Assembly: GCF_000940845.1 (NCBI RefSeq)
Contig: NZ_CP010341.1
Coordinates: forward strand, 420,001 to 452,000
Source: Propionibacterium freudenreichii subsp. freudenreichii
GTDB lineage: Bacteria > Actinomycetota > Actinomycetes > Propionibacteriales > Propionibacteriaceae
Reading direction: 5' to 3'
Length of the DNA stretch: 32,000 nucleotides
Below are positions 6,742-21,465 of the stretch, piece after piece (positions within the stretch are counted from its first letter, which is position 1; each line of letters starts with the position of its first letter). The translations under genes were made by a program, and so were the position numbers. The notes below the pieces were generated by a model. It had not been told where the DNA came from. It worked only from the letters and a program-made list of their open reading frames with translations, and searched no databases.

Positions 6742-6742
6742 G

Positions 6743-7942
6743 TCAGTCCTCATCCGCATCGGCCGTGGCACCGGCAAGGATGATCGGGTTGCCGGTGACC
6801 TCGAGCACCTGCCCGTCCCAGCGGATCCCGGCCGTGGCGACGGCGCGTTCGATGGCAGTGGCCAGGATGGGCCCGGTGACCTCGGGCACCAGTGGCTCGA
6901 GTTCCGTGTGGGTGCCACGTCGGCCATCGAGCGTGACCACCGGGTCGCCGGCTTCCACCAGATCGCAATTGGCGCGCAGTTCGAGCTCCTGGTCAGACAG
7001 GGCGAGGCCATGCAGCGACAGGGCCGCCAGGAGTGCGCGGCAGGCGACATTGCCCGCATTGTCGGCGCCGAAACGCAGCTGGCGCAGGGCGCTGAACGAC
7101 AACACATGGGAGCGGATGATGCGCCTGCACGAGACGAAGCCGAGGCCATCGAGGCTCGGGGGGATCGCTCCGAGCCCGAGGACCGAAGCCGACGTCGGCT
7201 TGTTCTTGGCCTTCTTGGCGTCCTTCGTGATCTTGTCCACGGTGGTCGGCGACATCTCGTCTTCCTGCGTGGCGAGCAGGGTGAGCATGTCCTTCTCGTT
7301 GAGCTGCACACTCGGGGCGATGTCGTCCTTGCGGGCAGAGCCGCGCCGCGGAGGCTTTCGCCCGGCCTCGGTCTGGTCAGCCAGCTGGCCGATGATCTCG
7401 CCGACCAGGCATGAGCGGAAGCGGGCCTGATGCGCCTTGCGGGTCGAATCCCACGCGCCGAATGCCAAGCTCACGGGGCTCAACTCGAGCAGTGCGCGCG
7501 CGTTGGCCGGGGAGGCATTGCGGGCGGCCACATATGCCGGGTACTTGGTGGTCACCTCGCCGTCGATTGTGCCGAAGCGGATGTGGCCGTCGCTGAAGCG
7601 GTGGGGCAACTGGTAATCGGTGGCGCTCAGGGTTTCGTAGTCAACCCGGATCGACGGCATCCGGGTCAGCGATGGGTCACCTTCCTCGATGGCCAGGGAG
7701 ATGGCATCCTCCACGCGGTTGAGCTGGCTCGCCTTGCTGTCGACGACGACCACGCTGCTGGGCTCGCCGCCGATGAAGCGGGTCTCGTAGGCATAGGTCC
7801 CGTCGCGTCCCTGCACATAGCGGGCGGGGGCGATGCCTGCCTGCGGTCCGGCTGCGGGGGCGAGTTCCGTCACCGACGACAGGACGCTGGCTCCGCCGGC
7901 GTGGCAGGCCGCTTCGAGGTCGGAGTAGGTGAGATCGGTCAT
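6743..7942 (-). CDS. csb1: Csb1-type Cas7 RAMP backbone protein (Cas7u), 399 aa
   Basis: Start ATG 7942 with AAGGAG 7 nt upstream (MTDLTYSDLEAACHAGGASVLSSVTELAPAAGPQAGIAPARYV...VVVDSKASQLNRVEDAI). This matches my memory of the Csb1/GSU0053 family. The 532-aa track ORF extends over the untranslated leader and the tRNA. Confidence 0.75.
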   Translation of the reverse strand: MTDLTYSDLEAACHAGGASVLSSVTELAPAAGPQAGIAPARYVQGRDGTYAYETRFIGGEPSSVVVVDSKASQLNRVEDAISLAIEEGDPSLTRMPSIRVDYETLSATDYQLPHRFSDGHIRFGTIDGEVTTKYPAYVAARNASPANARALLELSPVSLAFGAWDSTRKAHQARFRSCLVGEIIGQLADQTEAGRKPPRRGSARKDDIAPSVQLNEKDMLTLLATQEDEMSPTTVDKITKDAKKAKNKPTSASVLGLGAIPPSLDGLGFVSCRRIIRSHVLSFSALRQLRFGADNAGNVACRALLAALSLHGLALSDQELELRANCDLVEAGDPVVTLDGRRGTHTELEPLVPEVTGPILATAIERAVATAGIRWDGQVLEVTGNPIILAGATADADED

Positions 7943-8219
7943 TGTGTTCTCCTTGAGTGGTTGGGTGGGAGGCAGCGGTGCTTCTTGATCGTGAGTATGG
8001 CGGTGACCACTGACAGTTCTTGGCGGTTGCTGTGGTTGGGGTGGTCCTGACGGGTTCGACGGGCTGGTTCTGGATGACGGTTCCCCGTCAGCAGTCACCA
8101 TACACACATCATCCCCCCCTTCGTTCACATTCCTCTGTATTGACGTCAGTAGGGAACCGAGGGGTGTGAGGTGTCGCAGGTGATTGAGGGTCAGAGCTGA
8201 CGTCCACGTCCCCAGACGC

Positions 8220-8252
8220 AAAAAAGGGCCAGCCGGCACCAGCCAGCTGACC
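8220..8252 (-). terminator. Intrinsic terminator downstream of tRNA-Ser
   Basis: On the minus strand: GGTCAGCTGGC-TGGT-GCCGGCTGGCC, an 11-bp stem including two G-U pairs and a 4-nt loop, followed after one C by TTTTTT. It lies 33 nt after the tRNA 3' end. Confidence 0.8.
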
Positions 8253-8285
8253 CAACAGGCCCGCGACACGACGGTCGACGAGCGA

Positions 8286-8373
8286 TGGCGGAGGATACGA
8301 GATTCGAACTCGTGAGGGCGTGAACCCAACCCGCTTTCCAAGCGAGCGCCATAGGCCTCTAGGCGAATCCTCC
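8286..8373 (-). tRNA. tRNA-Ser (anticodon GGA), class II with long variable arm, CCA encoded
   Basis: Hand-folded cloverleaf. Acceptor GGAGGAT/ATCCTCC. 3-bp D stem GCC/GGC. Anticodon stem CTCGC/GCGGG with loop TTGGAAA (anticodon GGA). 16-nt variable arm with GGG/CCC stem. T arm ACGAG-TTCGAAT-CTCGT. Discriminator G, then CCA. Confidence 0.9.
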
Positions 8374-9745: not shown

Positions 9746-9852
9746 GACGCCGCCCCGACTGGGCCGGTATGTGGAGCGCCTGTCGGGGGTCGGGCTGGGA
9801 GCTGCAAGCCCCTTGATTCGCGCGAGCCGAACCCACAAGGCCCCGAAGACAT

Positions 9853-9947
9853 GAAGGGGTCCTCCGCGCACCCGGAAGAGCTCACTTACCCTTGCTGCCT
9901 TCCGGCCCTGGGGGAATTGGGCGAGGTACCGCCGCGCGGAGGACCTT
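9853..9947 (-). ncRNA. ffs: Candidate signal recognition particle RNA (small bacterial 4.5S type)
   Basis: The minus-strand RNA AAGGUCCUCCGCGC...GCGCGGAGGACC folds as one long hairpin with a perfect 12-bp basal helix (9934-9945 pairs with 9858-9869). The apex is CCC-CAGG-GCC-GGAA-GGC-AGCA-A-GGG. This gives a GGAA tetraloop, a 3-bp helix and a CAGG/AGCA internal loop, as in E. coli 4.5S (CAGG-UCC-GGAA-GGA-AGCA). A possible promoter lies upstream: TAACAT -10 (plus 9954-9959) and TTGCGC -35 (plus 9979-9984) with a 19-nt spacer. The ends are approximate. Confidence 0.65.
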
Positions 9948-10029
9948 GCCGCCATGTTACCCGGGAGCACGCCCGGTCGCGCAAGCCGGAGCCCGTCCCC
10001 GAACCCGCCGCCGCAGCATCCACAGCCCT

Positions 10030-10058
10030 TGACAAGGGCGCCGGTGATGCCCTTGTCA
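10030..10058. repeat. Perfect 10-bp inverted repeat TGACAAGGGC-N9-GCCCTTGTCA
   Basis: Read directly from the sequence. The left arm carries TTGACA (10029-10034), but no usable -10 follows on either strand. Confidence 0.5.
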
Positions 10059-10162: not shown

Positions 10163-10185
10163 TTATTACAACTAACTTGTAATAA
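10163..10185. promoter_or_regulatory. AT-rich perfect palindrome TTATTACAA-CTAAC-TTGTAATAA; candidate operator/promoter of the DUF2249-nirK operon
   Basis: 9-bp perfect arms with a 5-bp spacer, inside the only strongly AT-rich patch of the region (GTTATTATTACAACTAACTTGTAATAAATAGG). It ends 34 nt before ATG 10219. Confidence 0.55.
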
Positions 10186-10218: not shown

Positions 10219-10506
10219 ATGACCGACCTGCCCATCACCCAGACCCACCACTGCACCTGCGCGGAGGGGGAAACCAACACTCCCGAGCTCGACGCCAGCG
10301 CCATCCCGCACGCGATTCGCCACGCCGCCATCCTCGGCGCGCTGCAGGGCCTGGGCCACAACGAATCGATGATCCTGGTGGCCCCGCACAATCCGCTGCC
10401 GCTGCTCGACCAGATCGACTCCATGTGGCCCGACGTCTTCAGCCTCGAATATGTGCAGGAAGGCCCCGACGCCTGGAAGATCCGCTTCACGCGCGTGGCC
10501 GCCTGA
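10219..10506 (+). CDS. DUF2249-family small protein, 95 aa
   Basis: GAAGGGA RBS. The sequence LDASAIPHAIRHAAILGALQGLGHNESMILVAPHNPLPLLDQI...LEYVQEGPDAWKIRFTR fits the DUF2249 pattern (H..RH..I...L..G......H.P.PL...GP..W) as I remember it. Confidence 0.7.
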   Translation: MTDLPITQTHHCTCAEGETNTPELDASAIPHAIRHAAILGALQGLGHNESMILVAPHNPLPLLDQIDSMWPDVFSLEYVQEGPDAWKIRFTRVAA

Positions 10507-10511
10507 GCACC

Positions 10512-11522
10512 GTGGACGGCCAGACCGGCCTCGTTCGTCGCGCCGCAGTCCTCGGCGTCGGTGCGACGGATGGGGCTTACCCCAGCGACCGCGGCGCCCC
10601 GCTTGATCCGCAGTGCCAACGGCTGATGGACGCCCTGCTCACCGCTCCGGGGCCGATGACGGTGGCCCAGCTGGGTGTCGACGCGGAGATGCGTCCCAAC
10701 ACGGTGCGCTTCCACCTGGCCCACCTGGGCGATGCCGGGCTGGTGAGCGGTGTTTCGGCGCGCACCACCACACGCGGACGCCCCGGCGTGCTCTATCGCG
10801 CCACCGCGAGGGCCTTCGACAGCGGCCCGCAGCATCCCCGGCTGCTCACCGAGGTGCTCATGCACCATTTCCTTGCCGACGCCGCGACGCCACCGCCATC
10901 GGTTGAGGACCCGCAGCGTCCCACCACGGTGTGGGAGCGGGCCCGCCGTGCCGGACGCGCCTGGTCGTCGCACGTCGAGACGCTGCCCGGCGGAAGTCCG
11001 GCGCACGGCGGCGCCGGACCGGAACACGTGACTGACGGCACTGCGCAGTTCGACGCCCTCCTCACCCAACTCGGTAACTGGGGACTCGCACCCAACCGCA
11101 TCCGTGACCCTGGCGTCCCGGATGGCTCAGCGGTTCCGGATGAGTCGGCGGCAGCCTCGACACACAGTCCAGTGGGATCGACAATCGGCCCCGGCCCTGT
11201 TTCGCCGGACCCTGCAGCCGCCCAGCGTGATCACCTCCCCGACCGTATACGCATTGGACTCAACCGGTGTCCCTTCGCCCACGAGGCCAGCGAGTGCCCC
11301 GACCTCGTCTGCGGCGTACATGCCGGCATCATCGACGGACTACTCGCCCAACTCGGCGGGTCATGGCGCGTCGCACGGCTCACGCCCCACGCCTCGGCCG
11401 GCCAATGCCTGCTGGACGCCGAACTCACCCACCCTGCACTCCAGGCCCCTCCGTGCCCGGCGGCCGCATACCCAGACTCCGTGCACCGGGCCGGCCGCGG
11501 CGGCACCACGCCCCGCGCGTAA
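10512..11522 (+). CDS. ArsR-like winged-helix transcriptional regulator with Cys-containing C-terminal domain
   Basis: wHTH region MTVAQLGVDAEMRPNTVRFHLAHLGDAGLVSGVSARTTTRGRPGVLYRAT. C-terminal motif RCPFAHEASECPDLVCGVHAGIIDGLL...AGQC. The start is uncertain: GTG 10512 lies 5 nt after the DUF2249 stop, and the track start 10425 overlaps that gene. Confidence 0.65.
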   Translation: MDGQTGLVRRAAVLGVGATDGAYPSDRGAPLDPQCQRLMDALLTAPGPMTVAQLGVDAEMRPNTVRFHLAHLGDAGLVSGVSARTTTRGRPGVLYRATARAFDSGPQHPRLLTEVLMHHFLADAATPPPSVEDPQRPTTVWERARRAGRAWSSHVETLPGGSPAHGGAGPEHVTDGTAQFDALLTQLGNWGLAPNRIRDPGVPDGSAVPDESAAASTHSPVGSTIGPGPVSPDPAAAQRDHLPDRIRIGLNRCPFAHEASECPDLVCGVHAGIIDGLLAQLGGSWRVARLTPHASAGQCLLDAELTHPALQAPPCPAAAYPDSVHRAGRGGTTPRA

Positions 11523-11596
11523 TCACCGGGGTGCGGCCCTTGCGTGGCGCCGCAGCGCCTACCCTGAGCATGACCCGCCTGCAAGAAAGCCACCCC

Positions 11597-12874
11597 ATGT
11601 CACAGCCCGTTGCCGTCCCGGAACAGGGCAGCGCCGACCCGCCGCTCAAACCCGCCAGCCAGACCCGACGCGTGATCGTGCTGCTCGTGCCGTGCGGAGT
11701 GGCCATGGTGATGGGTTTGGACGCCGCCCTGGTGCTGCTCGGCCTGCCGGCCCCGTTGAGTGGTGAGCGGTTCTCGTCGGCCCACGGCATCATCATGACC
11801 ATCGGCTTCTTGGAAGCTCTCGTCAGCCTGGAGAGCGCGGTGTCCCTGCGTCGCCTGTGGGCCTACTGCGCTCCGGCTGCCCTCGCCGTGGGTGCCCTCC
11901 TCGTGCTCACACCGCTTCCCCTCCAGGCCGGTCAGCTGCTCATGCTTGTCGGTTGCGCGCTGCTGATCGTCAACTATTCGGTGTTGTGGACGCGCAAGCA
12001 CGAGCCGATGGTGGCGGTGCAGGTGGGTGGGGCCCTCGCCGCGCTGGGTGCCGTGCTCCTGTGGACGGGTGGGGTGTCGATCCCCGACTTGTTCGCCTGG
12101 CTGGTCACCTTCCTGATGCTCACCATTGCCGCCGAACGCGTCGTCATCTCGCGGTTCAGTCCCTCGGTGCTGACGCCGGCCGGGGCGCGGCGCTATCAGC
12201 GCGGCATCGTGGTGATCAGTGCCCTGATCGTGTTTGCGTGTCCCCTCACCACCATCTGGTCGGGCCGGGTGCTTCCCGTGTTCGGGCTGGCGCTCATCGC
12301 CCTGACCGTGGTGGCCGCATGGGGCGATGGTGCCCGCAGCGACCTCAGGGTGCGCGCCCGCGCGACGGTTGCGGGGTCGGACGCTGCGTCGGATGCGGAC
12401 ACTGCGTCCGGTTCGGCCATCACGCCGAGCCAGCGCTTCACCGGCGTCATGGTCTTCATCAGCTACCTGTGGTTGATCGTCACCGGCCTGCTCCTGGTGC
12501 ATCCCACCTTGTCAGGGCTGCATTACGATGCCCTGCTGCACGCCGTGTTCCTTGGTTTCGTGATGACCATGGTGGTGGCCCATGTGCCCACCTACCTGCC
12601 GTTCCTGCTGGAGATCCGGTTCCGCTTCAACCCCGGATTCTGGGGCGTCGCGGTGCTGTTGAACGTCGGGCTGGTGGTTCGCATCGTCGCCGACCTGGCT
12701 GGCTCCGAGACCGGACGCACCCTCGGCGGGCTGGCCAATATCGCCGCCCTGCTGTCGCTGGTTGCCGTTGCCGTCTGGGCAGCCGTCGTCAAGGGCCCTG
12801 AGGACCCGCAGGCACCCGCCGGCGACACGCGGGCGATTTCGGACACATCCCCCACCAAGGACTCCCGGGCATGA
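11597..12874 (+). CDS. Polytopic integral membrane protein (possibly NnrS-like; function unassigned)
   Basis: About 10-12 hydrophobic segments, with conserved-looking His residues in the segments SSAHGIIMTIGF and LLHAVFLGFVMTMVVAH. Start is ATG 11597 or ATG 11570. The stop overlaps the nirK start (ATGA). The track start 11267 lies inside the regulator gene. Confidence 0.6.
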   Translation: MSQPVAVPEQGSADPPLKPASQTRRVIVLLVPCGVAMVMGLDAALVLLGLPAPLSGERFSSAHGIIMTIGFLEALVSLESAVSLRRLWAYCAPAALAVGALLVLTPLPLQAGQLLMLVGCALLIVNYSVLWTRKHEPMVAVQVGGALAALGAVLLWTGGVSIPDLFAWLVTFLMLTIAAERVVISRFSPSVLTPAGARRYQRGIVVISALIVFACPLTTIWSGRVLPVFGLALIALTVVAAWGDGARSDLRVRARATVAGSDAASDADTASGSAITPSQRFTGVMVFISYLWLIVTGLLLVHPTLSGLHYDALLHAVFLGFVMTMVVAHVPTYLPFLLEIRFRFNPGFWGVAVLLNVGLVVRIVADLAGSETGRTLGGLANIAALLSLVAVAVWAAVVKGPEDPQAPAGDTRAISDTSPTKDSRA

Positions 12875-15507
12875 ACATCGAAAGCCCCACCACACGGAGA
12901 CGCCCCCACGGCCTGGCCAGCCGCCGGGTCTGGTTCACGGCCGTCACGGTGCCGGTCTGCCTGTGGGCGCTCGTCGCGCTCGCGGCACTGATCGGCCAGC
13001 GCTGGCGCGCCGACCTGGGCTGGATCGGCCTGCATGCCGCCGCCCTGGGCGTGGCCACCAACGCCATCGTCACCTGGAGCGACTACTTCGTCGACGCCCT
13101 GATGCGTGGAGCCGCCTCGTCGAAGGCCCGCCAGATCGGCGTGCTGGCGGGGCTCAACGTCGGCACCCTGGCGCTCATCGGGGGCATCGAGGCCGCCCTG
13201 AATCCCCTTGTCACAGCGGGTGCGGCGCTCATTGTCGTGGCGATCGTCGTCCACTGCGCCAGCCTGTGGCGACGCAGCCGCGGGGCATTGACCACCCGGC
13301 TTGGCAGCACGGTCGTGGGCTACTACATCGCCTGTGCCGGCTGGTTCGTGGCGGCCGGTGTCTTCGGCTTCCTCATGACCACCGCCGGCGGGGGCCACCT
13401 CAACCGTTACCTGCTGGCCCACATCGCCTCTGCGGTGCTCGGCTGCCTCGGGCTGGCCGTCATCGGCACCCTCGTCACGCTGTGGCCCACCATCCTGCGC
13501 ACCCGCATGGTGCCCGGTGCACAGACCGATGCCCGACGGGCCCTTCCGCTGCTCAACATCGCCCTTGCGGTGGTCGTCATCGGCGGCGTGATCGGACGCG
13601 GCTGGCTCTCGGCGCTAGGCCTGCTCGGATACCTGGCGTGCCTGGGCTTCACCCTGGCCGCGATGATGCGCGCCGCCCGGGTGAAGCCACCGCGCAGCTT
13701 CGCTGCCCGCAGCGTGATCGCCGGTATGGCATGGCTGGTGGGCACGCTCGTCGTGGCCACGGTGATCGCGGCCATGGGGCCCGACACCGCCACGATCATG
13801 AACCGACTCACGGCGCTGGCCTGGCCACTGCTCGCCGGTTTCGCCGCCCAACTGATCGCCGGGTCAATGGCCTACCTGCTGCCGGTGGTGATCGGTGGCG
13901 GCCCCGCCATGGTGCGCCGGCGCAACCGGGTGATGGACCTGGCGTCCAACACCCGCCTCGTCGCGGCAAATGGCGCCGGACTAGGCCTTCTGCTCCCGCT
14001 TCCGGCTGCCGGTCGGGTGGCGATGATCGCCGTGGCGGCAGCATGCGTTGCCGCGTTCCTGGTGCTCGTGGTGGCCACCGCCGTCGTCCGTAGGCCGTTG
14101 CAGATGGCCGACGTGCCACCGGCGCGCACCCACGGCTTCGAGGCAATGCTCGGCGTCGGCGTCCTGGTGATCGCACTGGCCATCGCCACCGCGATCTCGC
14201 CAGCCACGATGGTCGGCAAGGGCACTGCGAGCGGCGCCGGTTCCTCCGGGGCGGTCGGCAACGGGCAGAGTCAGCACGTGTCGGTGGAGGCCCACGACAT
14301 GAAGTTCACGCCCAACACCATCGACGTGCCGGCCGGCACTCACCTGTTCATCGACGTGAAGAACACCGACACCGGCGGCATGGTGCACGACCTTGTGCTT
14401 GCCTCGGGAGCCACCTCGGGACGCCTGTCACCCGGCGCGTCCGGCACGCTCGACGCCGGCGTGATCAGTGCCAGCACCGACGCCTGGTGCTCCATCGCCG
14501 GCCACAAGCAAATGGGCATGACCATGAAGATCAACGCGAGCGGCGCCGCGCCAGCCGGCGGTGCAGCGGCGGTGGGTTCCCCGAGCGCGACCCACGCGAC
14601 GCCCGACCCGAACGCGCAGATGACCGCCGATCCCTGGGATGCCGCCCTGCAACCGGCCGGCCCCGAGACCGAGCACCGCATCACCCTGGACGTCACCGAG
14701 AAGGAAGTGGAGGTGGCACCGGGCGTCCGCCAGCTGCGGTGGGTCTACAACGGCCAGGCGCCCGGCCCGGTGCTGCGCGGGCACGTGGGCGACAAGTTCG
14801 CGGTCACGCTGATCAACCACGGCACGATGGGCCACAGCATCGACTTCCACGCCGGCGCGCTGGCCCCCGACGGCCCGATGCGCACCATCCAACCCGGCGA
14901 GCAGCTCACCTACATCCACACCGCCACCAAGTCGGGGGTGTGGATGTACCACTGCGCCACCGCACCCATGTCGTTGCACATCGCGAACGGCATGTTCGGC
15001 GCGGTGATCATCGACCCGCCCGGCCTCACGCAGGTGGACAAGGAATACCTCATCATCCAGTCCGACCACTGGTATGGCGCCCAGGGGGAGGGCAACGACG
15101 CCGCCCGCATCAGCGACGGCAATCCGGACGCCGTGGTGTTCAACGGGTACGCCAACCAGTACGACGCGCACCCGCTGCCCGCCACGGTCGGCAACCGGAT
15201 CCGCTTCTGGGTGCTCGACATCGGCCCCAACGAGCCGATCAGCTTCCACATGGTGGGTGGCCAGTTCGACACGGTCTGGGCCGAGGGCGCATTCCGCCTG
15301 GAGTGCGGATACCAGCCGGCCGCCGGCGTCGACCCGGCCTGCGGCACGCTGGGGCCCGGCGGCTCCCAGACGCTGTCGCTCGGCCCCGCCGAGGGCGGCT
15401 ACGTCGAGATGGTGGCGCCCGAGGCCGGCCACTACAAGTTCATCAACCACGTGATGAGCGACGCCGAGAAGGGCGCCCACGGCACGCTGGAGGTCTCCGC
15501 GGGCTGA
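12871..15507 (+). CDS. nirK: Copper-containing nitrite reductase (NirK) fused to an N-terminal polytopic membrane domain and a cupredoxin domain, 878 aa
   Basis: Residues 1 to about 450 are multiple TM helices. Nt 14275-14535 encode a type-1 Cu cupredoxin (MVHDLVL...WCSIAGHKQMGM). Nt 14671-15507 encode the NirK core: GHSIDFHAG (T1/T2 His plus catalytic Asp), WMYHCATAPMSLHIANGMFG (His-Cys...His...Met), FHMVGGQFDTVW, and FINHVM. Confidence 0.85.
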   Translation: MNIESPTTRRRPHGLASRRVWFTAVTVPVCLWALVALAALIGQRWRADLGWIGLHAAALGVATNAIVTWSDYFVDALMRGAASSKARQIGVLAGLNVGTLALIGGIEAALNPLVTAGAALIVVAIVVHCASLWRRSRGALTTRLGSTVVGYYIACAGWFVAAGVFGFLMTTAGGGHLNRYLLAHIASAVLGCLGLAVIGTLVTLWPTILRTRMVPGAQTDARRALPLLNIALAVVVIGGVIGRGWLSALGLLGYLACLGFTLAAMMRAARVKPPRSFAARSVIAGMAWLVGTLVVATVIAAMGPDTATIMNRLTALAWPLLAGFAAQLIAGSMAYLLPVVIGGGPAMVRRRNRVMDLASNTRLVAANGAGLGLLLPLPAAGRVAMIAVAAACVAAFLVLVVATAVVRRPLQMADVPPARTHGFEAMLGVGVLVIALAIATAISPATMVGKGTASGAGSSGAVGNGQSQHVSVEAHDMKFTPNTIDVPAGTHLFIDVKNTDTGGMVHDLVLASGATSGRLSPGASGTLDAGVISASTDAWCSIAGHKQMGMTMKINASGAAPAGGAAAVGSPSATHATPDPNAQMTADPWDAALQPAGPETEHRITLDVTEKEVEVAPGVRQLRWVYNGQAPGPVLRGHVGDKFAVTLINHGTMGHSIDFHAGALAPDGPMRTIQPGEQLTYIHTATKSGVWMYHCATAPMSLHIANGMFGAVIIDPPGLTQVDKEYLIIQSDHWYGAQGEGNDAARISDGNPDAVVFNGYANQYDAHPLPATVGNRIRFWVLDIGPNEPISFHMVGGQFDTVWAEGAFRLECGYQPAAGVDPACGTLGPGGSQTLSLGPAEGGYVEMVAPEAGHYKFINHVMSDAEKGAHGTLEVSAG

Positions 15508-15660: not shown

Positions 15661-17040
15661 ATGAAGATCACACGAGCCCTGGCCGCCACTGCCACGCTGA
15701 CCGCGCTGTTGGTGGGCACCGGCGTTGCCGGGGCCGCCGCCGACGTCACCTGGGAATCATCGCCGGGACCCCACACCTTCAGCGTGGACGTCACCCCTGT
15801 TTCCTACATGGTCGACAGCTCCGGTGACGCCGCCCTGCGCGTGGAACACATCGTCGACGAGAACGGCCGGGCCTTGCTGTGCGCCCAGTTCGACCGGCCG
15901 TCGCCCTCGGGGACGCAGCTGCAGCCGTTGGGACGCGCCACTCCGCAACTTGCCTACCTGGCCAACCAGTTGGAGCATCCTGAGCTCAATCCTGACCTGG
16001 CCGGGCTGGACGCCATGCAGCAGTACTACGTGCTGCAATTCGTGGCCCACATGTATGACAGCCCCCATTTCGCCGCCTTCACCGATGTGCAGGACGGGCA
16101 ACGGGTCGCCGATCCGCATGGCCTGATCCCACGCATCACCGCGGTGAAGGCCAGGGCCGACGCCGCCTCGAATGGCGACTTCTTCGAGGGCCACAAGATC
16201 TCGGTGTCCGAGCCCGTCCCGGCCTCCGCCCTCGACGCCGAGGGATTCTGGCTGTCCGATCCGGTGACCGTGAGCGTGCAGGCCGGAAGCGCGCAGGTCA
16301 CCGTGAAGCCCACGTGGAATGAGGCGGCCACCGCGGCGGGCACCACACTGGTCGATGCCGCCACCGGCGCCCCGCTGGAGGCCGTCACCGACGGGGCACA
16401 GGTGCGGCTCAAGACCTCGGCCGACAAGCTGGCCGGTAGGGCCGGCCGGGTGGGCGTCACCCTCGACGCCAGCTTCGACGGGGGCACCGCCAAGATCGGA
16501 TATCTCTACGGCGGTGACGAGTCGGTGCAACAGATCGTCGGCTATGACGAGATCACCTACAACGAGCACCTGTCCACCGACATCTCCACCGCCTACACCC
16601 CGGTGCTCGGCTCACTGAGCGGCACGAAGGAGGGCGCGGCAGGCGAGCGGCTGGCCGGCGTGGAGTTCACGGTGAAGGACGCCGGGGGCACCGCGCTGAC
16701 AACCGTGACCACCGCATCGGACGGCACATTCACCGTCCCCGACGTGCCCTGGGGCACCTGGTTCATCCACGAGACCAAGACCCCGCAGGGTTATCTCCCC
16801 TTGTCACAGCCTGTCGAGGTGACCATCGACGGTGCCCACCGCCGCATTGACCTGCCGACCATCACCAACGACAAGGCCCCGGTGGCCAAGGGGCTGTCCA
16901 CCATCAACACCGGGCGGCCCCCATCTGACAATGCGCTGAACCCGGCGCTCGTCATTGCGGCGGGCGTCCTGCTGGGTGGCGGTGTCGGTGGTGGCGCCTG
17001 GTGCGTCGGAAGCCGTGTGACGCAGGCCATGGGCCACTGA
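15661..17040 (+). CDS. Secreted cell-surface protein with C-terminal CnaB/SpaA-type (prealbumin-fold) domain and C-terminal membrane anchor/sorting-like signal, 459 aa
   Basis: AAAGGA RBS. Signal peptide MKITRALAATATLTALLVGTGVAGAAA. CnaB-like LAGVEFTVKDAGGTALTTVTTASDGTFTVPDVPWGTWFIHETKTPQGY. C-terminus ...LSTINTGRPPSDNALNPALVIAAGVLLGGGVGGGAWCVGSR. A sortase gene lies immediately downstream. Confidence 0.75.
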   Translation: MKITRALAATATLTALLVGTGVAGAAADVTWESSPGPHTFSVDVTPVSYMVDSSGDAALRVEHIVDENGRALLCAQFDRPSPSGTQLQPLGRATPQLAYLANQLEHPELNPDLAGLDAMQQYYVLQFVAHMYDSPHFAAFTDVQDGQRVADPHGLIPRITAVKARADAASNGDFFEGHKISVSEPVPASALDAEGFWLSDPVTVSVQAGSAQVTVKPTWNEAATAAGTTLVDAATGAPLEAVTDGAQVRLKTSADKLAGRAGRVGVTLDASFDGGTAKIGYLYGGDESVQQIVGYDEITYNEHLSTDISTAYTPVLGSLSGTKEGAAGERLAGVEFTVKDAGGTALTTVTTASDGTFTVPDVPWGTWFIHETKTPQGYLPLSQPVEVTIDGAHRRIDLPTITNDKAPVAKGLSTINTGRPPSDNALNPALVIAAGVLLGGGVGGGAWCVGSRVTQAMGH

Positions 17041-17082
17041 CGCCAGGCCATGGGCCACTGACGCCAGGCCATGGGCCACCGA
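17021..17082. repeat. Three tandem copies of a 21-bp unit (CGCCAGGCCATGGGCCACTGA) spanning the surface-protein stop codon
   Basis: Copies at 17020-17040, 17041-17061 and 17062-17082. Copies 1 and 2 end in TGA and copy 3 ends in CGA. A degenerate partial copy follows (TGCCCACTGA). Confidence 0.9.
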
Positions 17083-17181
17083 TGCCCACTGATGCACAGT
17101 GCCGCGACGGAAAGTGCCGCGACGCGAGGGCGGAGAACGGGCGCCAGGGATGCGACGCGCCAGCAAGCAGGGGGAGTAGCG

Positions 17182-17985: not shown

Positions 17986-20900
17986 GTGGATGGCGATCTG
18001 GATCCCGAGGGCCACGAGGCACCTGAGGACGATTTCTTCGAGCAGGACGGTCCTGCCCTGTTCGACGATGCCGCCAGCACCGAATCCACCAGCGCGGACA
18101 GCACGAAGGGAACCATGGCGAACAGCACCGATACCGGCGGCGTGGACGCACCACGCGACGAGCCCCTGGCGTCCGGTGAGATCCCGACGCCGGATGCCCC
18201 GGTGGCTGCTACGCCCGACGCGCCTGCGCCCGACAACGACCCGGGGGCGCCGCTGGCGCTCTACCGGCGCTATCGTCCCGACACCTTCGAGCAGGTGATC
18301 GGTCAGGACCATGTGACCCTGCCGTTGCAGCGTGCGATCGCCAACAACCGGGTGAGCCATGCCTACCTGTTCAGCGGCCCGCGCGGCTGCGGCAAGACCA
18401 CCTGTGCCCGCATCCTTGCGCGCTGCCTCAACTGCGAGAACGGCCCCACGCCCACTCCCTGCGGCCATTGCACGAGCTGCCGTGAACTGGCCACCGGAGG
18501 GCCCGGCAGCATCGACGTGATCGAGATCGACGCCGCCTCCCATGGCCGCGTCGACGACGCCCGCGAGCTGCGCGAGGGCATCTTCTTCGCACCGGTGCAA
18601 TCGCGCTTCAAGATCTACATCATCGACGAGGCCCACATGGTCACCAAGGAGGGCTTCAACGCGCTGCTGAAGGTGGTGGAGGAGCCGCCGCCGCACGTGA
18701 AGTTCATCTTCGCCACCACCGAGCCCGACAAGGTGATCGGCACCATCCGCTCGCGCACCCACCACTATCCCTTCCGGCTGGTGCCCCCGAAGGTGCTCAC
18801 CGACTACCTCGAGAAGATCTGCGTCGAGGAACACGTGCAGGTTGAGCCCGGCGTCCTGCCACTCGTGGTGCGTGCCGGCGCCGGATCGGTGCGTGACTCG
18901 CTGTCGGTGCTCGACCAGCTGCTCGGCTCGGCCGGTGCCGACGGCGTCAGTTACCAGCAGGCCACCTCGTTGCTCGGCTACACCCCCGATGCCCTGCTCG
19001 ACGAGATGGTCGACGCGCTGGCCGCCGGTGACGGCAAGGGCGTCTTCGGCACCATCGACAAGGTGATCGAGATCGGCCAGGACCCGCGACGGTTCGCCGA
19101 GGACCTGTTGCAGCGGCTGCGCGATCTGGTGATCGTGGCCGACGTGCCCGACGCCCTGAGCTCCGGCCTGATCGACGTGGCCGCCGACCAGGCGCAGCGC
19201 TTCGAACACCAGGCGGCACTGATCGGGCCCGGGGAACTCACGCGGGCCGCCGAGGTGATCGCCAGCGGCCTCACCCACATGCGGGGCACCACCGCGCCCC
19301 GACTGCACCTCGAACTGATGTGCGCACGCATCCTGCTTCCCGGCGCCGACGTGGACGGACGCGGCACCCACGCGCGCCTCGACCGGCTGGAACGTCGCGT
19401 CGGAATGCCCGGCGTGGCCGAGGAGCCCGCCGTCGAGCAGCCCGCGCCACCCCAGTGGGACGACCAGGCCAATGTCAGTCGAGACCCCCATGCCGACGCC
19501 CAACCCGGCGTCGACGACCAGCAGGGTGCCCGCACCCGACAGCGCTCCGTGCGCGACGGTGGTTCAGGGCTCAGCGGTGTGGGCCTGGCAGGTCCCGGCT
19601 ATGCCGACCGAGCGAACCAGACCCAGATGGGCAATGCTCCCGGTACCGCCGCCGGCATGGGTGTCGGTGCGCCCACCGGTGGTGGTCATGCCGCCACGGC
19701 CCGTCAACGCCCCGCCGTCGATCAGACGGTCGCCCCGGCATCCGGTGCGCCCCGCCAACAGCGGCCGGCTGCCGGCCCCGCGCCTGACGGGCAGGCGACG
19801 CCGCCCGGCAACGCTTCTCGCGGCCATGCTGGGCCCACCGATACTGGGCCCACCAGCGCCGGGCCCGGTATCGCCGCGTCTGATCAGGCTGCGTCCGATC
19901 ACCCTGCGCCGACCGACAACCTCGGGGACAGCCCGAACGCCGGCACATCGCACGCCACCGCCGCTGATGGCGCAGCGACCGGGGTCAATACGAACGCCGA
20001 CAACGCCCCGGGCGCCGACAACGCCGGGCCGGCCGGGCCCGCCCCGCAGGCCACGGGTGCGCAAGCCCCGTCGTCGGGGGATTCGTTCCCGGCGCAGGCT
20101 CCTTCCTCCGCTGCCGGCCGCCTGAACACCGCCGAGGTGCGCAGGCTGTGGCCGGAGGTGCTCACTGCGGTGAAGGGCCGCCGTCGCTTCACCTGGATTC
20201 TGCTCAGCCAGAATGCGCAGGTGCTGCAGGCCGACGTCGACGGCCTGTCGCTGGCCTTCAACTCGGCCGGCGCCCGGGACAGCTTCCAGAACGGTGGCTC
20301 CAACGACGTGCTGCGGGAAGCCCTGATCGACGTGCTCGGCGCCGACCTGCCGATCCACTGCGTGGTGGAGGGTACGGCCGCCATGAACGAGGCGCGTGGG
20401 GGAGAACCTGCCAGGCAGCGCCCAGCGCCGACCCAACAACAGGCGCCAACCCAACACCCGACATCGACCCAACACCAGGCACCCGCCCAGCAGCAGGCGC
20501 CGACCCAGCACGAGGCACCAGCCGGGCATTCGGCGCCCCAGGACCAGGCCGCGCCCCAGCGGCAACCCGGGGCTGGGCAACGTCCGGCCCCCGGTCAGGC
20601 GGAGCCTGATCAGTCGGGAACCGGCCCATCGGAACCGGCCCAACCGGCGTCCGACAAGCGGGAAGGCGGCCACCAAGGCCCCCCAGCTGAGGGCGGCGAG
20701 CGTGCGGGGGGCTCGTCGCAGCAACACCAGTCGCAGCAACACCGGGATGACGCGGATCAGCACCTGGCCGATCCGCCGGAGGTCCCGCGCCAACGTGCCG
20801 CGCAAGCCGGATCCCCCGGGGATGACGGGAGCCATGGAGCGACGGGAGTTCCCGATGACGCTGCACCGGCCCGCCGCAATGGCCGTCGTCGCCATGTGAT

Positions 20901-21400: not shown

Positions 21401-21465
21401 GCACCACACTGCACGGGGCTCCGCACCACACCGCACAGGGCTCCGCACCACACCGCAGGGCTCTG
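21401..21465. repeat. Three tandem copies of a 22-bp unit (GCACCACACYGCACRGGGCTCC) just after the dnaX stop
   Basis: Copies at 21401-21422, 21423-21444 and 21445-21465. The last is 21 nt and slightly diverged. Followed by the small hairpin GTGGG-TGCC-CCCAC. Confidence 0.85.

What the first reader, a model, noticed from the sequence alone, without database searches (positions are those of the whole stretch)
10219..15507. Four-gene putative nitrite/NO-handling operon: DUF2249 - wHTH regulator - polytopic membrane protein - membrane-anchored NirK
The genes are packed tightly: a 5-nt gap, then 47-74 nt depending on the start chosen, then an ATGA overlap. They share one upstream palindromic element. 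Only NirK has a defined biochemical role. DUF2249 proteins and NnrS-like membrane proteins tend, as far as I recall, to occur next to denitrification/NO-stress genes without an assigned mechanism. The combination looks like a self-contained, self-regulated nitrite-to-NO module with no nor gene visible in the window. That leaves open how the NO product is dealt with.
Basis: partly seen in the sequence, partly recalled or inferred. Interest (0 to 1): 0.65.

Follow-up and report, generated by a model that had tools for sequence, protein, structure and literature searches.

The report
Actinobacterial nitrite reductase operon, oxidase-like partners
This is a real four-gene copper nitrite reductase operon of Propionibacterium freudenreichii, conserved across Actinobacteria; its two uncharacterised membrane parts are predicted to fold like the core subunit of respiratory oxidases and nitric oxide reductases, which gives a testable lead on how these bacteria supply electrons to the enzyme or deal with its toxic product.

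Summary
Four + strand genes lie at 10219-15507 with a 5-nt gap, a 47/74-nt gap and an ATGA overlap. A unique perfect palindrome (10163-10185) sits 34 nt upstream. The genes are DUF2249; a winged-helix regulator with an invariant Cys3His C-terminal motif and weak SufR resemblance; a 12-TM protein (g3); and an 878-aa protein made of 13 TM helices, a cupredoxin and NirK, with all copper and catalytic residues intact. The window is Propionibacterium freudenreichii.

The block is conserved. In 80 loci from other species, g3 is followed by the NirK fusion in 71-74. The g3 stop overlaps the g4 start by 4 nt in 49 of 56. DUF2249 lies within 6 kb in 61, usually divergent and, in the loci checked, fused to hemerythrin.

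The "NnrS" call is only loosely right: the window's g3 has no Pfam hit. Both are predicted, from AlphaFold models, to have the heme-copper oxidase/NO reductase subunit I fold, but both lack the six-histidine catalytic set.

The NirK architecture was already described, with its TM domain called "unknown function". No nor gene is in the window, but the rest of the genome could not be checked. This is a new member of a known but uncharacterised kind, and the mechanism is inferred.

The parts
10163..10185 (.). Perfect 9-5-9 palindrome TTATTACAA-CTAAC-TTGTAATAA inside an AT-rich island, 34 nt upstream of g1. It is the candidate operator of the g2 repressor and overlaps the likely promoter.
   Evidence: I6. 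It is unique in the window and appears in 0 of 100 shuffles. The arms are conserved with a variable spacer in L002 and L003. Binding by g2 is inferred, not shown.
10219..10506 (+). g1: a stand-alone DUF2249 protein of 95 aa. It carries the conserved CxC (C12, C14) and D25, H31, R34, H35 and H57.
   Evidence: PF10006 E 6.1e-22, 77.7 bits against a cut-off of 29.5. Conservation was measured across 62 homologues. In Knoellia, Mycobacterium and Streptomyces loci the homologue is a hemerythrin-DUF2249 fusion transcribed divergently.
10512..11522 (+). g2: an ArsR-type winged-helix regulator of 336 aa. Its C-terminal domain carries invariant C253, C267, H270 and C299. In this species a long low-complexity insert separates the two domains.
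   Evidence: HTH_5 22.5 bits (cut-off 22) and HTH_20. The Cys3His residues are invariant in 53 of 53 homologues and the RGRP wing is conserved. PDB matches cover the wHTH only. 11 of 14 homologues give weak SufR TIGR02702 matches, and two of these extend to the first two Cys.
11570..12874 (+). g3: a 12-TM membrane protein of 434 aa from ATG 11570 (alternative start ATG 11597). It belongs to an uncurated family and is predicted to have the heme-copper oxidase subunit I fold. Invariant residues are H72 (TM2), H324 and H338 (TM10), E88, E189, R190, D253 and D320.
   Evidence: No Pfam or NCBIfam hit. 161 homologues at E<=0.001 in the protein search. At least 577 relatives among species genomes. 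AlphaFold pLDDT 85.7, pTM 0.85, 12 TM helices. The top 22 Foldseek PDB matches are all NorB, CcoN or CoxI (4xyd_A E 7e-4; TM-score 0.52-0.60). Conservation.
12871..14190 (+). g4 residues 1-440: a 12-TM oxidase-like domain plus a 13th TM helix (421-439) that places the rest of the protein outside the cell. Invariant residues are H55 (TM2), H128 (TM4), H184 (TM6), Q327 (TM10), W32, Y152, W288 and R362.
   Evidence: AlphaFold pLDDT 87, pTM 0.85. Foldseek top hits are cbb3 CcoN 9g6b_A (E 2e-4, TM-score 0.57) and NorB 3o0r_B (TM-score 0.54). hhalign against the g3 family gives E 1.4e-5. 6 of 25 homologues give sub-threshold PF00115 COX1 hits, best E 1.1e-5. Conservation. Topology was read from the positive-inside pattern of the loops in the sequence.
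14248..14535 (+). g4 residues about 460-555: an extracytoplasmic cupredoxin domain with an intact type 1 copper site (H506, C540, H545, M550).
   Evidence: Cupredoxin_1 PF13473 E 4.2e-8. The four ligands are invariant in 65 of 65 homologues. It aligns with the N-terminal cupredoxin of Hyphomicrobium NirK 2dv6_A.
14668..15507 (+). g4 residues about 600-878: the NirK catalytic core. T1Cu ligands are H655, C695, H703 and M708. T2Cu ligands are H660, H694 and H860. The catalytic residues are D658 and H793.
   Evidence: TIGR02376 E 1.6e-41, although its 142.7 bits fall below the 296.3 cut-off. PDB NirK hits reach E 1.6e-43 to 1e-37. All listed residues are conserved in 60-65 of 65 homologues.

Best explanation
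This is the Propionibacterium freudenreichii copy of a nitrite-reducing membrane module that is conserved across Actinomycetota.

Shown:
- g4 encodes a copper nitrite reductase with an intact catalytic core and an extra cupredoxin. Both are predicted to sit on the outer face of the membrane behind a 13-TM N-terminal region.
- g3 and that N-terminal region are distant paralogues. Both are predicted to have the 12-helix fold of heme-copper oxidase/NO reductase subunit I, without the six-histidine binuclear site.
- g3 and g4 are almost always adjacent and overlap by 4 nt.

Inferred:
- g3 and g4 are co-translated and form one membrane complex.
- Each oxidase-like module holds one b-type heme near the outer face, through H72/H324 in g3 and H55/H184 in g4.
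- The fused module passes electrons from menaquinol to the cupredoxin and then to NirK. This would make the enzyme independent of soluble donors in a bacterium without a periplasm.
- g3 acts in an NnrS-like way on the NO that partitions into the membrane.
- g2 is a SufR/ArsR-like repressor. It binds the palindrome at 10163-10185 and is released when its Cys3His site, probably an Fe-S cluster, is modified by NO or O2.
- DUF2249 is a metal-binding co-sensor or partner of g2. It has a CxC plus His motif and is fused to hemerythrin in most relatives examined.
For: Gene order and spacing.

NirK identity and intact Cu and catalytic residues. The cupredoxin T1Cu site is also intact.

Conservation of the block: the TM domain follows g3 in 74 of 80 loci, the cupredoxin in 73 and NirK in 71. 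g4 is a single ORF in 64 of the 70 loci where all three parts were found. The 4-nt stop/start overlap is present in 49 of 56.

Paralogy and fold: hhalign of A1 against A2 gives E 1.4e-5. Both AlphaFold models have pTM 0.85 and 12 TM helices. Their Foldseek matches are almost exclusively NorB, CcoN or CoxI, with TM-scores of 0.5-0.6. There are sub-threshold COX1 hits in 6 of 25 g4N homologues and weak NnrS hits in 4 of 34 g3 homologues.

Histidines: the invariant His lie at matching depth in TM2/TM10 (g3) and TM2/TM6 (g4).

Regulator: wHTH plus invariant Cys3His, with weak full-length SufR resemblance. In C. gilvus, g2 and DUF2249 form their own divergent pair with a 4-nt overlap.

Operator: unique in the window and conserved in L002 and L003 with a variable spacer.

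Context: DUF2249 genes are induced under denitrifying conditions in Haloferax, and one acts in nitrate-respiration control in Thermus (PMC11218638, PMC6282519). Propionibacteria, including P. freudenreichii, reduce nitrite to N2O as a detoxification (Kaspar 1982, as cited in PMC3534718).
Against: - No cofactor was shown. The heme assignment rests on helix positions in AlphaFold models. I had no model coordinates, so no His-His distances were measured.
- HMM profiles of the g3 and g4N families (A1, A2) find no oxidase in the PDB at E<=10. The oxidase link is fold-level plus sub-threshold hits only.
- Stand-alone g4N homologues occur away from any NirK, and g3 occurs without NirK in 4 uncut loci. 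So these modules cannot serve only to feed NirK.
- No quinol-binding site was identified.
- The window's g3 departs from the family consensus at several positions that are at least 93% conserved (R89S, G82E, E192V, A339V, I342Y). It also carries a 23-aa insert.
- g2's SufR matches are far below the cut-off (at most 24 bits against 178.8), and the window's own g2 gives none.
- No transcript data exist, and there is no convincing terminator after g4.
Confidence: 0.55

Rival explanations
1. The g3 plus g4 complex is itself an unrecognised NO-consuming enzyme. NirK makes NO, and the attached oxidase/NOR-fold modules convert it, for example to N2O. The operon would then perform nitrite to N2O without a canonical nor gene.
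For: The fold of both modules matches NorB and CcoN best. NirK is physically fused to one module, and the other is translationally coupled to it. g3 has invariant acidic residues and a third invariant His (E88, E189, D253, D320, H338), and g4N has H128. Propionibacteria make N2O from nitrite. Many Actinobacteria with NirK lack Nor (PMC10999283; PMC4770552 table). A Nitrospira g3 homologue sits between a hemerythrin gene and an Fe-S assembly gene.
Against: Neither module has the TM6/TM7/TM10 histidines that build the heme-FeB or heme-CuB site of every known NOR or oxidase. No profile reaches the COX1 threshold. Genome-based models assign NO reduction to Propionibacterium species by other annotated genes, so a conventional nor gene may exist outside the window.
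Confidence: 0.17
2. The oxidase-like modules are redox-inert. They would act only as a membrane anchor or scaffold, or as a copper-delivery or assembly device, for an extracytoplasmic NirK in a bacterium without a periplasm.
For: The canonical oxidase metal ligands are lost. Some actinobacterial NirKs lack the TM domain altogether (PMC4770552). L024 has g3 followed directly by cupredoxin-NirK with no TM-domain hit.
Against: A 12-TM domain is far more than an anchor needs, since one helix (421-439) already exports the enzyme. Three His in each module are invariant across 65-70 species. A second paralogue is kept and translationally coupled to g4. Stand-alone homologues exist without NirK.
Confidence: 0.15
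3. One reading: g3 is an ordinary NnrS-family protein and the TM part of NirK is only an anchor. The operon would simply release NO, for signalling or as an antimicrobial, and NO handling would lie elsewhere.
For: UniRef names a few g3 homologues "NnrS family protein". 4 of 34 family members give weak PF05940 hits. The HxHxxLFGF...TAVPNW motif of NnrS resembles the HxHxNVLGW...TLWPT motif of g4N.
Against: The window's g3 gives no PF05940 hit even at E<=10. Profile-profile comparison with an NnrS alignment gives E 0.63 for g3 and 0.29 for g4N. The NirK N-terminal domain is a conserved 12-TM paralogue, not a simple anchor.
Confidence: 0.1
4. The four genes are neighbours by chance, or they are transcribed separately and do not form one functional unit.
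For: No transcript data are available. The 47-74 nt gap before g3 could hold a promoter. The only sigma-70-like match in the region (11157-11185) lies inside g2.
Against: The linkage is conserved in dozens of genera despite rearrangements of g1 and g2. The 4-nt g3/g4 overlap is conserved. There is a 5-nt g1/g2 gap here and a 4-nt g2/DUF2249 overlap in C. gilvus.
Confidence: 0.03

Closest known systems
The roughly 900-aa NirK of Propionibacterium (Cutibacterium) acnes and other long actinobacterial NirKs (described in PMC4770552, citing earlier genome surveys)
   Same: The architecture is the same: an N-terminal TM region of about 400 aa, then a cupredoxin with a CX4HX4M site, then the NirK core. 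g4 is 878 aa and has all three parts.
   Different: That work left the TM region as "unknown function". Its text as read here does not mention the upstream paralogue, the regulator or DUF2249. This analysis predicts the TM region to have an oxidase subunit I-like fold and finds it paralogous to g3.
Three-domain NirK with an N-terminal cupredoxin, Hyphomicrobium denitrificans HdNIR (PDB 2dv6)
   Same: It is the best solved-structure match to the soluble part of g4 (E 1.6e-43), and the alignment covers both the cupredoxin and the core. The same copper ligands are present.
   Different: HdNIR is a soluble periplasmic enzyme with no membrane domain and no oxidase-like partner.
Heme-copper oxidase superfamily subunit I: NorB of cNOR (4xyd, 3o0r), qNOR, cbb3 CcoN (3mk7, 9g6b), ba3 and aa3
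   Same: The predicted 12-helix fold is the same, with TM-scores of 0.5-0.6 over the whole length. A His is retained in TM2, and g3 also has His in TM10, the two helices that hold the low-spin heme in oxidases (established structural knowledge).
   Different: The TM6/TM7 histidine triad and the TM10 HxH pair are absent. No subunit II or NorC partner is present. Sequence similarity is only sub-threshold.
NnrS (PF05940), and the "HCO homology" families of Pei, Li, Kinch and Grishin 2014 (Protein Sci 23:1220). That paper was not readable here, so its content is recalled from memory; it is cited in PMC11218638.
   Same: These are 12-TM proteins of denitrification and NO-stress contexts with few conserved His. 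As I recall it, that paper proposed that such proteins bind one heme and are built of three 4-helix units. PMC11218638 states that the paper also linked DUF2249 to this superfamily.
   Different: g3 and g4N do not reach significance against NnrS by HMM or by profile-profile comparison. I could not check whether these two families are already listed in that paper.
Thermus thermophilus DrpA (DUF2249), and the haloarchaeal DUF2249 genes next to nirK and nor
   Same: These are small DUF2249 proteins encoded in nitrogen-oxide respiration clusters. They have a regulatory phenotype (Thermus) or are induced under denitrification (Haloferax).
   Different: The partner differs. DrpB is DUF1858 plus two DUF2249 domains and has no DNA-binding domain, whereas here the partner is a wHTH regulator. 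DrpA is reported to be periplasmic, but g1 has no visible export signal.
SufR, a wHTH repressor with a C-terminal Cys-ligated [4Fe-4S] cluster (TIGR02702)
   Same: The N-terminal winged helix has an RGRP wing, and the C-terminal region has invariant Cys. In some homologues a weak match spans the HTH through to the first two Cys.
   Different: Scores are far below the family cut-off (at most 24 bits against 178.8). The ligand set is Cys3His with different spacing. The target is a nirK operon, not suf. No cluster has been demonstrated.

Membership tests
Copper-containing nitrite reductase (NirK) | Type 1 copper ligands His-Cys-His-Met in the core | tested here: met
   H655, C695, H703 and M708 are present in the window and conserved in 60-65 of 65 homologues.
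Copper-containing nitrite reductase (NirK) | Type 2 copper ligands (three His) plus the catalytic Asp and His | tested here: met
   H660, H694 and H860, with D658 and H793, are conserved in 64-65 of 65. The region aligns to solved NirKs at E 1e-43 to 1e-37.
Copper-containing nitrite reductase (NirK) | Score above the NCBIfam TIGR02376 equivalog cut-off | tested here: not met
   142.7 bits against a cut-off of 296.3. The model is trained on classical short NirKs, so I weight the residue-level tests more heavily.
Copper-containing nitrite reductase (NirK) | Nitrite to NO activity | not testable with these tools
   Only indirect evidence exists: propionibacteria reduce nitrite to N2O (Kaspar 1982, cited in PMC3534718).
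NnrS (PF05940) | Match to the family HMM at the gathering score | tested here: not met
   The window's g3 and g4N give no PF05940 hit even at E<=10. 4 of 34 g3-family members give weak hits, best E 0.0053.
NnrS (PF05940) | Profile-profile similarity to bona fide NnrS sequences | tested here: not met
   hhalign of A1 against A3 gives E 0.63, and A2 against A3 gives E 0.29. The NnrS alignment had low diversity (at least 65% identity), so the test is not very sensitive.
NnrS (PF05940) | About 12 TM helices; heme and copper bound | tested here: inconclusive
   12 TM helices are predicted. Cofactors cannot be tested here.
Heme-copper oxidase / NOR subunit I (PF00115) | 12-helix core fold | tested here: met
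   Foldseek of both AlphaFold models returns NorB, CcoN and CoxI as top matches, with TM-scores of 0.5-0.6 and E down to 2e-4. This is a prediction-based fold match, not a solved structure.
Heme-copper oxidase / NOR subunit I (PF00115) | Six conserved histidines (TM2, TM6, TM7 x2, TM10 x2) that bind two hemes and CuB or FeB | tested here: not met
   g3 has only H72 (TM2) and H324 and H338 (TM10, 14 residues apart). g4N has only H55 (TM2), H128 (TM4) and H184 (TM6). Neither has a TM7 HH pair.
Heme-copper oxidase / NOR subunit I (PF00115) | Match to the family HMM at the gathering score | tested here: not met
   The window protein gives none. The best homologue reaches 25 bits against 34.8. The A1 and A2 profiles find no oxidase in the PDB.
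DUF2249 (PF10006) | Match to the family HMM at the gathering score over the full domain | tested here: met
   77.7 bits against 29.5, covering profile positions 1-70 of 70.
ArsR/SmtB winged-helix regulators | ArsR-type HTH | tested here: met
   HTH_5 gives 22.5 bits against a cut-off of 22, which is marginal. The A4 profile matches ArsR-family structures 2p4w and 6j05. NF033788 is below its cut-off, at 19.6 bits against 55.
ArsR/SmtB winged-helix regulators | Known metal-sensing sites (alpha3N or alpha5) | not tested
   These sites were not examined. The conserved Cys and His lie in a separate C-terminal domain.
SufR (TIGR02702) | Score above the equivalog cut-off | tested here: not met
   Homologues reach at most about 24 bits against 178.8. 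The window's g2 gives no hit.
SufR (TIGR02702) | C-terminal Cys ligands that hold an Fe-S cluster | tested here: inconclusive
   Invariant C253, C267, H270 and C299 are present. The presence of a cluster cannot be tested here.

The most novel reading that the evidence does not exclude
The two oxidase-fold modules (g3 and the N-terminal domain of NirK) would form a previously unrecognised class of heme-copper-oxidase-derived machinery. It would make actinobacterial NirK self-sufficient by taking electrons directly from menaquinol, by converting or sequestering NO in the membrane, or both. This would explain nitrite to N2O conversion, or NO tolerance, in the many NirK-bearing Actinobacteria that lack a recognisable nor gene. 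The module would be governed by a new Fe-S (Cys3His) wHTH sensor working with a hemerythrin/DUF2249 partner.
Probability: 0.2. Interest if true: 0.8.

Novelty: new member of a known kind. Interest (0 to 1): 0.5.

Why it matters
NirK-carrying Actinobacteria are abundant in soils, and surveys note that many lack Nor, so how they tolerate or process NO is unsettled (PMC10999283, PMC4770552). It is also unclear how an extracytoplasmic NirK gets electrons in bacteria that have no periplasm.

This analysis shows that the long actinobacterial NirK almost never travels alone. It comes with a translationally coupled paralogue of its own membrane domain, and both are predicted to fold like NO reductase/oxidase subunit I. 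It also comes with a dedicated Cys3His regulator and a DUF2249 protein that is often fused to hemerythrin.

That turns two open questions into concrete experiments on four named genes in a safe, cultivable dairy species for which nitrite to N2O reduction has been reported. If the modules prove catalytic, N2O-source and NO-budget models that score only nirK and nor would need revision.

Tried and rejected
1. NnrS membership. Pfam at E<=10 on the window proteins found nothing. I fetched a real NnrS from S. meliloti pSymA, confirmed it as PF05940 and built alignment A3. hhalign against both families was not significant. Membership rejected; only a loose resemblance remains.

2. Direct sequence link to oxidases. 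HMM profiles of A1 and A2 against all PDB sequences found nothing.

3. g3 and g4N as close duplicates. BLASTP found nothing. Only profile-profile comparison shows the relationship.

4. Thermus DrpB as the counterpart of g2. Rejected, because DrpB is DUF1858 plus two DUF2249 domains.

5. The same palindrome in other Actinobacteria. It was found only in L002 and L003. Other loci have a different AT-rich element, so I do not claim one phylum-wide operator.

6. An intrinsic terminator after g4. The scan found none on the + strand, and the region folds no better than shuffles (z +1.06).

7. Other conserved neighbours, such as nor or copper chaperones. All-against-all clustering of ORFs from the 80 loci found nothing shared by more than 12-20 loci outside the four-gene block. 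Shadow ORFs in this high-GC DNA made the clustering noisy.

8. Pei et al. 2014 could not be read, and no paper using their "HCOH" term is held.

9. No paper on nirK in P. freudenreichii was found.

Full report
**1. What is in the sequence**

The window is high-GC DNA, 66-73% per kb. Exact protein look-ups identify it as Propionibacterium freudenreichii: RecR, g4 and g1 are all found in P. freudenreichii records, where g4 is named "multicopper oxidase domain-containing protein" or "copper-containing nitrite reductase".

Four ORFs lie on the + strand:
- g1, 10219-10506
- g2, 10512-11522
- g3, 11570 (or 11597)-12874
- g4, 12871-15507

There is a 5-nt gap, then a 47- or 74-nt gap, then an ATGA overlap. 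Gene calls on a 97%-identical metagenome contig give the same structure (L084).

A perfect palindrome, TTATTACAA-CTAAC-TTGTAATAA, lies at 10163-10185 in an AT-rich island 34 nt upstream of g1. It is unique in the window and absent from 100 shuffles.

The stretch between ilvA and the operon is not empty. An SRP RNA gene sits at 9852-9948 on the - strand.

The rest of the window holds the following, and contains no nor, hmp or other NO-handling gene:
- CRISPR-associated genes
- a tRNA-Ser gene
- ilvA
- a SpaA-type pilin gene and a sortase gene
- dnaX
- recR
- ileS
- an aspartate kinase gene
- murJ

**2. Gene identities**

g1 is a full-length DUF2249 domain (PF10006, E 6e-22).

g2 has an ArsR-type winged helix at its N-terminus (HTH_5/HTH_20). 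Its C-terminal region of about 240 aa has no family match.

g3 has no Pfam or NCBIfam hit, even at E<=10.

g4 has three parts:
- an N-terminal membrane region of about 440 aa with no family match
- a cupredoxin (PF13473)
- a NirK-like core (TIGR02376, E 1.6e-41, but below the equivalog cut-off)

The soluble part of g4 aligns best to the Hyphomicrobium three-domain NirK 2dv6 (E 1.6e-43), and the alignment covers both the cupredoxin and the core.

In an alignment of 65 orthologues, all of the following are conserved:
- cupredoxin type 1 copper ligands: H506, C540, H545, M550
- core type 1 copper ligands: H655, C695, H703, M708
- type 2 copper ligands: H660, H694, H860
- catalytic pair: D658, H793

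g4 is therefore very probably an active nitrite reductase.

This architecture is already in the literature. The roughly 900-aa NirK of P. acnes was described as a 400-aa transmembrane domain "of unknown function", plus a cupredoxin, plus NirK (PMC4770552).

**3. The two membrane modules**

The g3 family is widespread in Actinobacteria. A protein search finds 161 homologues at E<=0.001, none with a precomputed Pfam domain. At least 577 relatives are found among species-representative genomes.

Homologues of the g4 N-terminal domain include fused forms of about 900 aa and forms of about 400 aa. A search of the 1.84-billion-protein representative library gives 1,772 at E<=0.001.

Several lines connect the two modules to each other and to the oxidase superfamily:
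- BLASTP sees no similarity between them. Profile-profile comparison does: probability 80%, E 1.4e-5 over 151 columns.
- AlphaFold models are confident. g3 has pLDDT 85.7 and pTM 0.85. g4N has pLDDT 87.0 and pTM 0.85. Both show 12 TM helices, and g4 has a 13th helix at 421-439.
- For g3, the 22 best Foldseek matches in the PDB are all subunit I of NO reductases or heme-copper oxidases. They include NorB 4xyd_A (E 7e-4), cbb3 CcoN 3mk7, NorB 3o0r_B, and aa3, ba3 and qNOR enzymes, with TM-scores of 0.52-0.60 over about 470-520 alignment columns.
- For g4N the picture is the same: CcoN 9g6b_A (E 2e-4, TM-score 0.57), 3mk7, and NorB 3o0r_B (TM-score 0.54).
- 6 of 25 g4N homologues give sub-threshold PF00115 hits, best E 1.1e-5.
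- 4 of 34 g3 homologues give weak PF05940 NnrS hits, best E 0.005.

A real NnrS was taken from S. meliloti pSymA and confirmed as PF05940. An alignment built from it is not significantly similar to either family (E 0.63 and 0.29).

My conclusion is that both modules are divergent relatives of oxidase subunit I, at about the same evolutionary distance as NnrS. They are not NnrS members.

This fits my recollection of Pei et al. 2014, who described "HCO homology" 12-TM families, including NnrS, with about two conserved His and denitrification contexts. I could not read that paper. PMC11218638 confirms that it linked DUF2249 to the oxidase superfamily.

**4. What the modules keep and what they lack**

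In 70 g3 sequences the invariant residues are H72, E88, E189, R190, D253, D320, H324, H338 and R371.

In 65 g4 sequences the invariant residues of the TM domain are W32, H55, H128, Y152, H184, P206, W288, Q327 and R362.

I mapped these onto the predicted helices and oriented the helices by the positive-inside pattern of the loops:
- In g3, H72 lies 6 residues from the outer end of TM2 and H324 lies 8 residues from the outer end of TM10. These are the two helices that hold the low-spin heme in oxidases.
- In g3, H338 lies deeper in TM10.
- In g4N, H55 (TM2) and H184 (TM6) each lie 8 residues from the outer end of their helix.
- In g4N, H128 sits in the inner half of TM4.
- In g4N, Q327 occupies the His-equivalent position of TM10.

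Neither module has the TM7 HH pair or the TM10 HxH pair. A canonical heme-CuB or heme-FeB site is therefore excluded.

One b-type heme per module near the outer face is plausible. It is not proven, because I had no model coordinates with which to measure distances.

**5. Conservation of the unit**

I ran tblastn with the window's parts against 80 loci. The loci come from Propionibacterium, Nocardioides, Mycobacterium, Streptomyces, Arthrobacter, Cryobacterium, Knoellia, Sanguibacter, Demequina and others, plus single Dehalococcoidia, Limnocylindria and Nitrospira MAGs.

| Feature near g3 | Loci (of 80) |
|---|---|
| TM domain directly downstream, same strand | 74 |
| Cupredoxin | 73 |
| NirK core | 71 |
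| DUF2249 within 6 kb | 61 |
| g2 C-terminal domain | 49 |
| g2 HTH | 39 |

- Five of the nine loci without NirK are cut by a contig end.
- Four uncut loci truly lack it: L059, L067, L076 and L081.
- Where all three parts of g4 were found, they form one ORF in 64 of 70 loci.
- The g3 stop and g4 start overlap by 4 nt (ATGA, GTGA or TTGA) in 49 of 56 loci. This is strong evidence for co-transcription and translational coupling.
- No other neighbour is widely shared.

The positions of g1 and g2 vary:
- In most loci DUF2249 is divergent. In Knoellia, Mycobacterium and Streptomyces it is the C-terminal domain of a hemerythrin fusion, joined through a His-rich linker and the same CxC motif.
- In Cellulomonas gilvus, g2 and DUF2249 form their own divergent pair with a 4-nt overlap.
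- Only the Propionibacterium-type loci have all four genes co-directional.

**6. Regulation**

Conserved residues of g2 are the recognition helix, an RGRP wing, and C253, C267, H270 and C299. The last four are invariant in 53 of 53 sequences.

A profile of the family matches only winged-helix and ArsR structures in the PDB.

11 of 14 homologues give weak matches to SufR, the wHTH repressor that carries a Cys-ligated [4Fe-4S] cluster. In two of the five checked, the match runs from the HTH to the first two Cys. All scores are far below the cut-off, and the window's own protein gives no match. This is a "works like" lead, not membership.

The palindrome arms are conserved with a different spacer upstream of the DUF2249 gene in L002 (0 mismatches) and L003 (2 mismatches). 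That pattern is expected of a protein-binding site.

Other Actinobacteria carry a different AT-rich element, TTATTACAGT-N5-7-CCGTG, whose GTG coincides with the likely g2 start. This suggests a TANNNT -10 box and a leaderless g2.

I found no convincing terminator after g4.

**7. How it most likely works**

Shown:
- an intact NirK, predicted to lie outside the cell
- fusion of NirK to an oxidase-fold module, with tight coupling to a second one
- a dedicated regulator with a Cys3His motif
- linkage to DUF2249

Inferred:
- Each module binds one heme.
- The fused module carries electrons from menaquinol to the cupredoxin and on to NirK.
- g3 handles NO in an NnrS-like way.
- g2 represses from the palindrome until NO or O2 modifies its metal centre, with DUF2249 as a partner.

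Three observations caution against a role tied only to NirK:
- Stand-alone g4N homologues sit in other contexts. One example lies next to Pyridox_ox_2, Usp and cNMP/CBS/DUF294 genes.
- A Nitrospira g3 homologue lies between a hemerythrin gene and an Fe-S assembly gene.
- One locus (L024) has g3 followed by a NirK without the TM domain.

These favour a more general NO- or redox-stress function.

Kaspar (1982), as cited in PMC3534718, reported nitrite reduction to N2O in propionibacteria including P. freudenreichii. Genome-scale models assign nitrite to N2O conversion to all Propionibacterium species except P. propionicum. A conventional NO reductase may therefore lie outside the window, and I could not check this.

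**8. Novelty and verdict**

Already described:
- the NirK architecture
- the DUF2249-denitrification link
- probably the oxidase-homology idea for such 12-TM proteins

Added here:
- the demonstration that the four-gene unit is conserved
- the paralogy and predicted fold of the two membrane modules
- the near-universal g3/g4 overlap
- the Cys3His, SufR-like regulator
- the operator

None of these parts has been studied experimentally as far as the held literature shows.

I rate this a new member of a known but uncharacterised kind. Interest is moderate (0.5). There is a 0.2 chance that the modules represent a new electron-entry or NO-consuming device.

Noticed in passing
window 9852-9948 (- strand): A bacterial small SRP RNA gene (RF00169, 66.5 bits, E 8e-13) lies in the supposedly empty spacer between ilvA and the operon. 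It is divergent from the operon and from dnaX. The nirK operon and the pilin/sortase pair therefore sit between ffs and dnaX-recR, genes that I recall are often adjacent in other bacteria.
   Followed up: partly
window 10030-10058: A second perfect inverted repeat, TGACAAGGGC-N9-GCCCTTGTCA (10-nt arms), lies between the SRP RNA gene and the operon. Its left arm forms TTGACA together with the preceding T. Its function is unknown; it could belong to the ffs promoter region or be a hairpin.
   Followed up: no
window 1590-8341 (- strand): CRISPR-associated genes: a Cas3-like helicase/HD protein (2588-5203), a Cas_GSU0053-family protein (within ORF 6743-8341) and unannotated ORFs between them. This looks like a type I-U-like set. 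No array was searched for.
   Followed up: no
window 8286-8373 (- strand): A tRNA-Ser (GGA) gene. It overlaps the upstream end of the long ORF 6743-8341, so the real start of that cas gene must be further downstream.
   Followed up: no
window 17018-17086: A 21-bp tandem repeat (TGACGCCAGGCCATGGGCCAC, 3.3 copies, 93% matches) at the junction between the SpaA-type pilin gene (ends 17040) and the sortase ORF (starts 17071).
   Followed up: no
window 21401-21457 and 20425-20523: A 22-bp repeat (2.6 copies) lies just after the dnaX stop codon. 18/36-bp repeats lie inside the low-complexity C-terminal part of dnaX.
   Followed up: no
window 11570-12874 (g3): The P. freudenreichii g3 differs from the family consensus at several positions conserved in at least 93% of 70 sequences (R89S, G82E, A92S, E192V, A339V, I342Y). 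It also has a 23-aa insert in the loop before TM9. Its closest relative, P0002, shares the first changes, so this looks lineage-specific rather than decay.
   Followed up: partly
L001 about 18235-19590 (- strand), S. meliloti pSymA: A 452-aa polytopic protein in the stretch of pSymA that also carries nnrS and norB (L001). It has no Pfam hit and resembles the g4 N-terminal domain weakly (hhalign E 7e-4; motif HVVAIGWLGLLMTGALLQFVP). It may be another unrecognised oxidase-like family member in a denitrification region.
   Followed up: partly
L076 7345-9422 (Nitrospira MAG): A g3 homologue without any NirK lies directly between a hemerythrin gene and an Fe-S cluster assembly protein gene (PF01883). 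This hints at an NO or iron-centre protection role that is independent of NirK.
   Followed up: partly
L085 3176-8487 and L086 4125-5432: Stand-alone homologues of the NirK N-terminal domain, about 410-435 aa, occur with no NirK nearby. One sits next to Pyridox_ox_2, Usp and cNMP-binding/CBS/DUF294 genes, a hypoxia- or NO-response-like neighbourhood.
   Followed up: partly
L006-L079, about 60-100 nt upstream of the g2 HTH-coding region: Most actinobacterial loci share an AT-rich element, TTATTAC(A/C)(G/C)T-N5-7-CCGTG(G/A)AAAA. Its GTG appears to be the g2 start codon (read directly in L009). This suggests a TANNNT -10 box and a leaderless g2 mRNA in a divergent promoter region shared with the hemerythrin-DUF2249 gene.
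   Followed up: partly
L024 5501-8242 (Dermabacteraceae MAG): Here g3 is followed about 330 nt later by cupredoxin-NirK, with no detectable oxidase-like TM domain. g3 can therefore accompany a short NirK.
   Followed up: no
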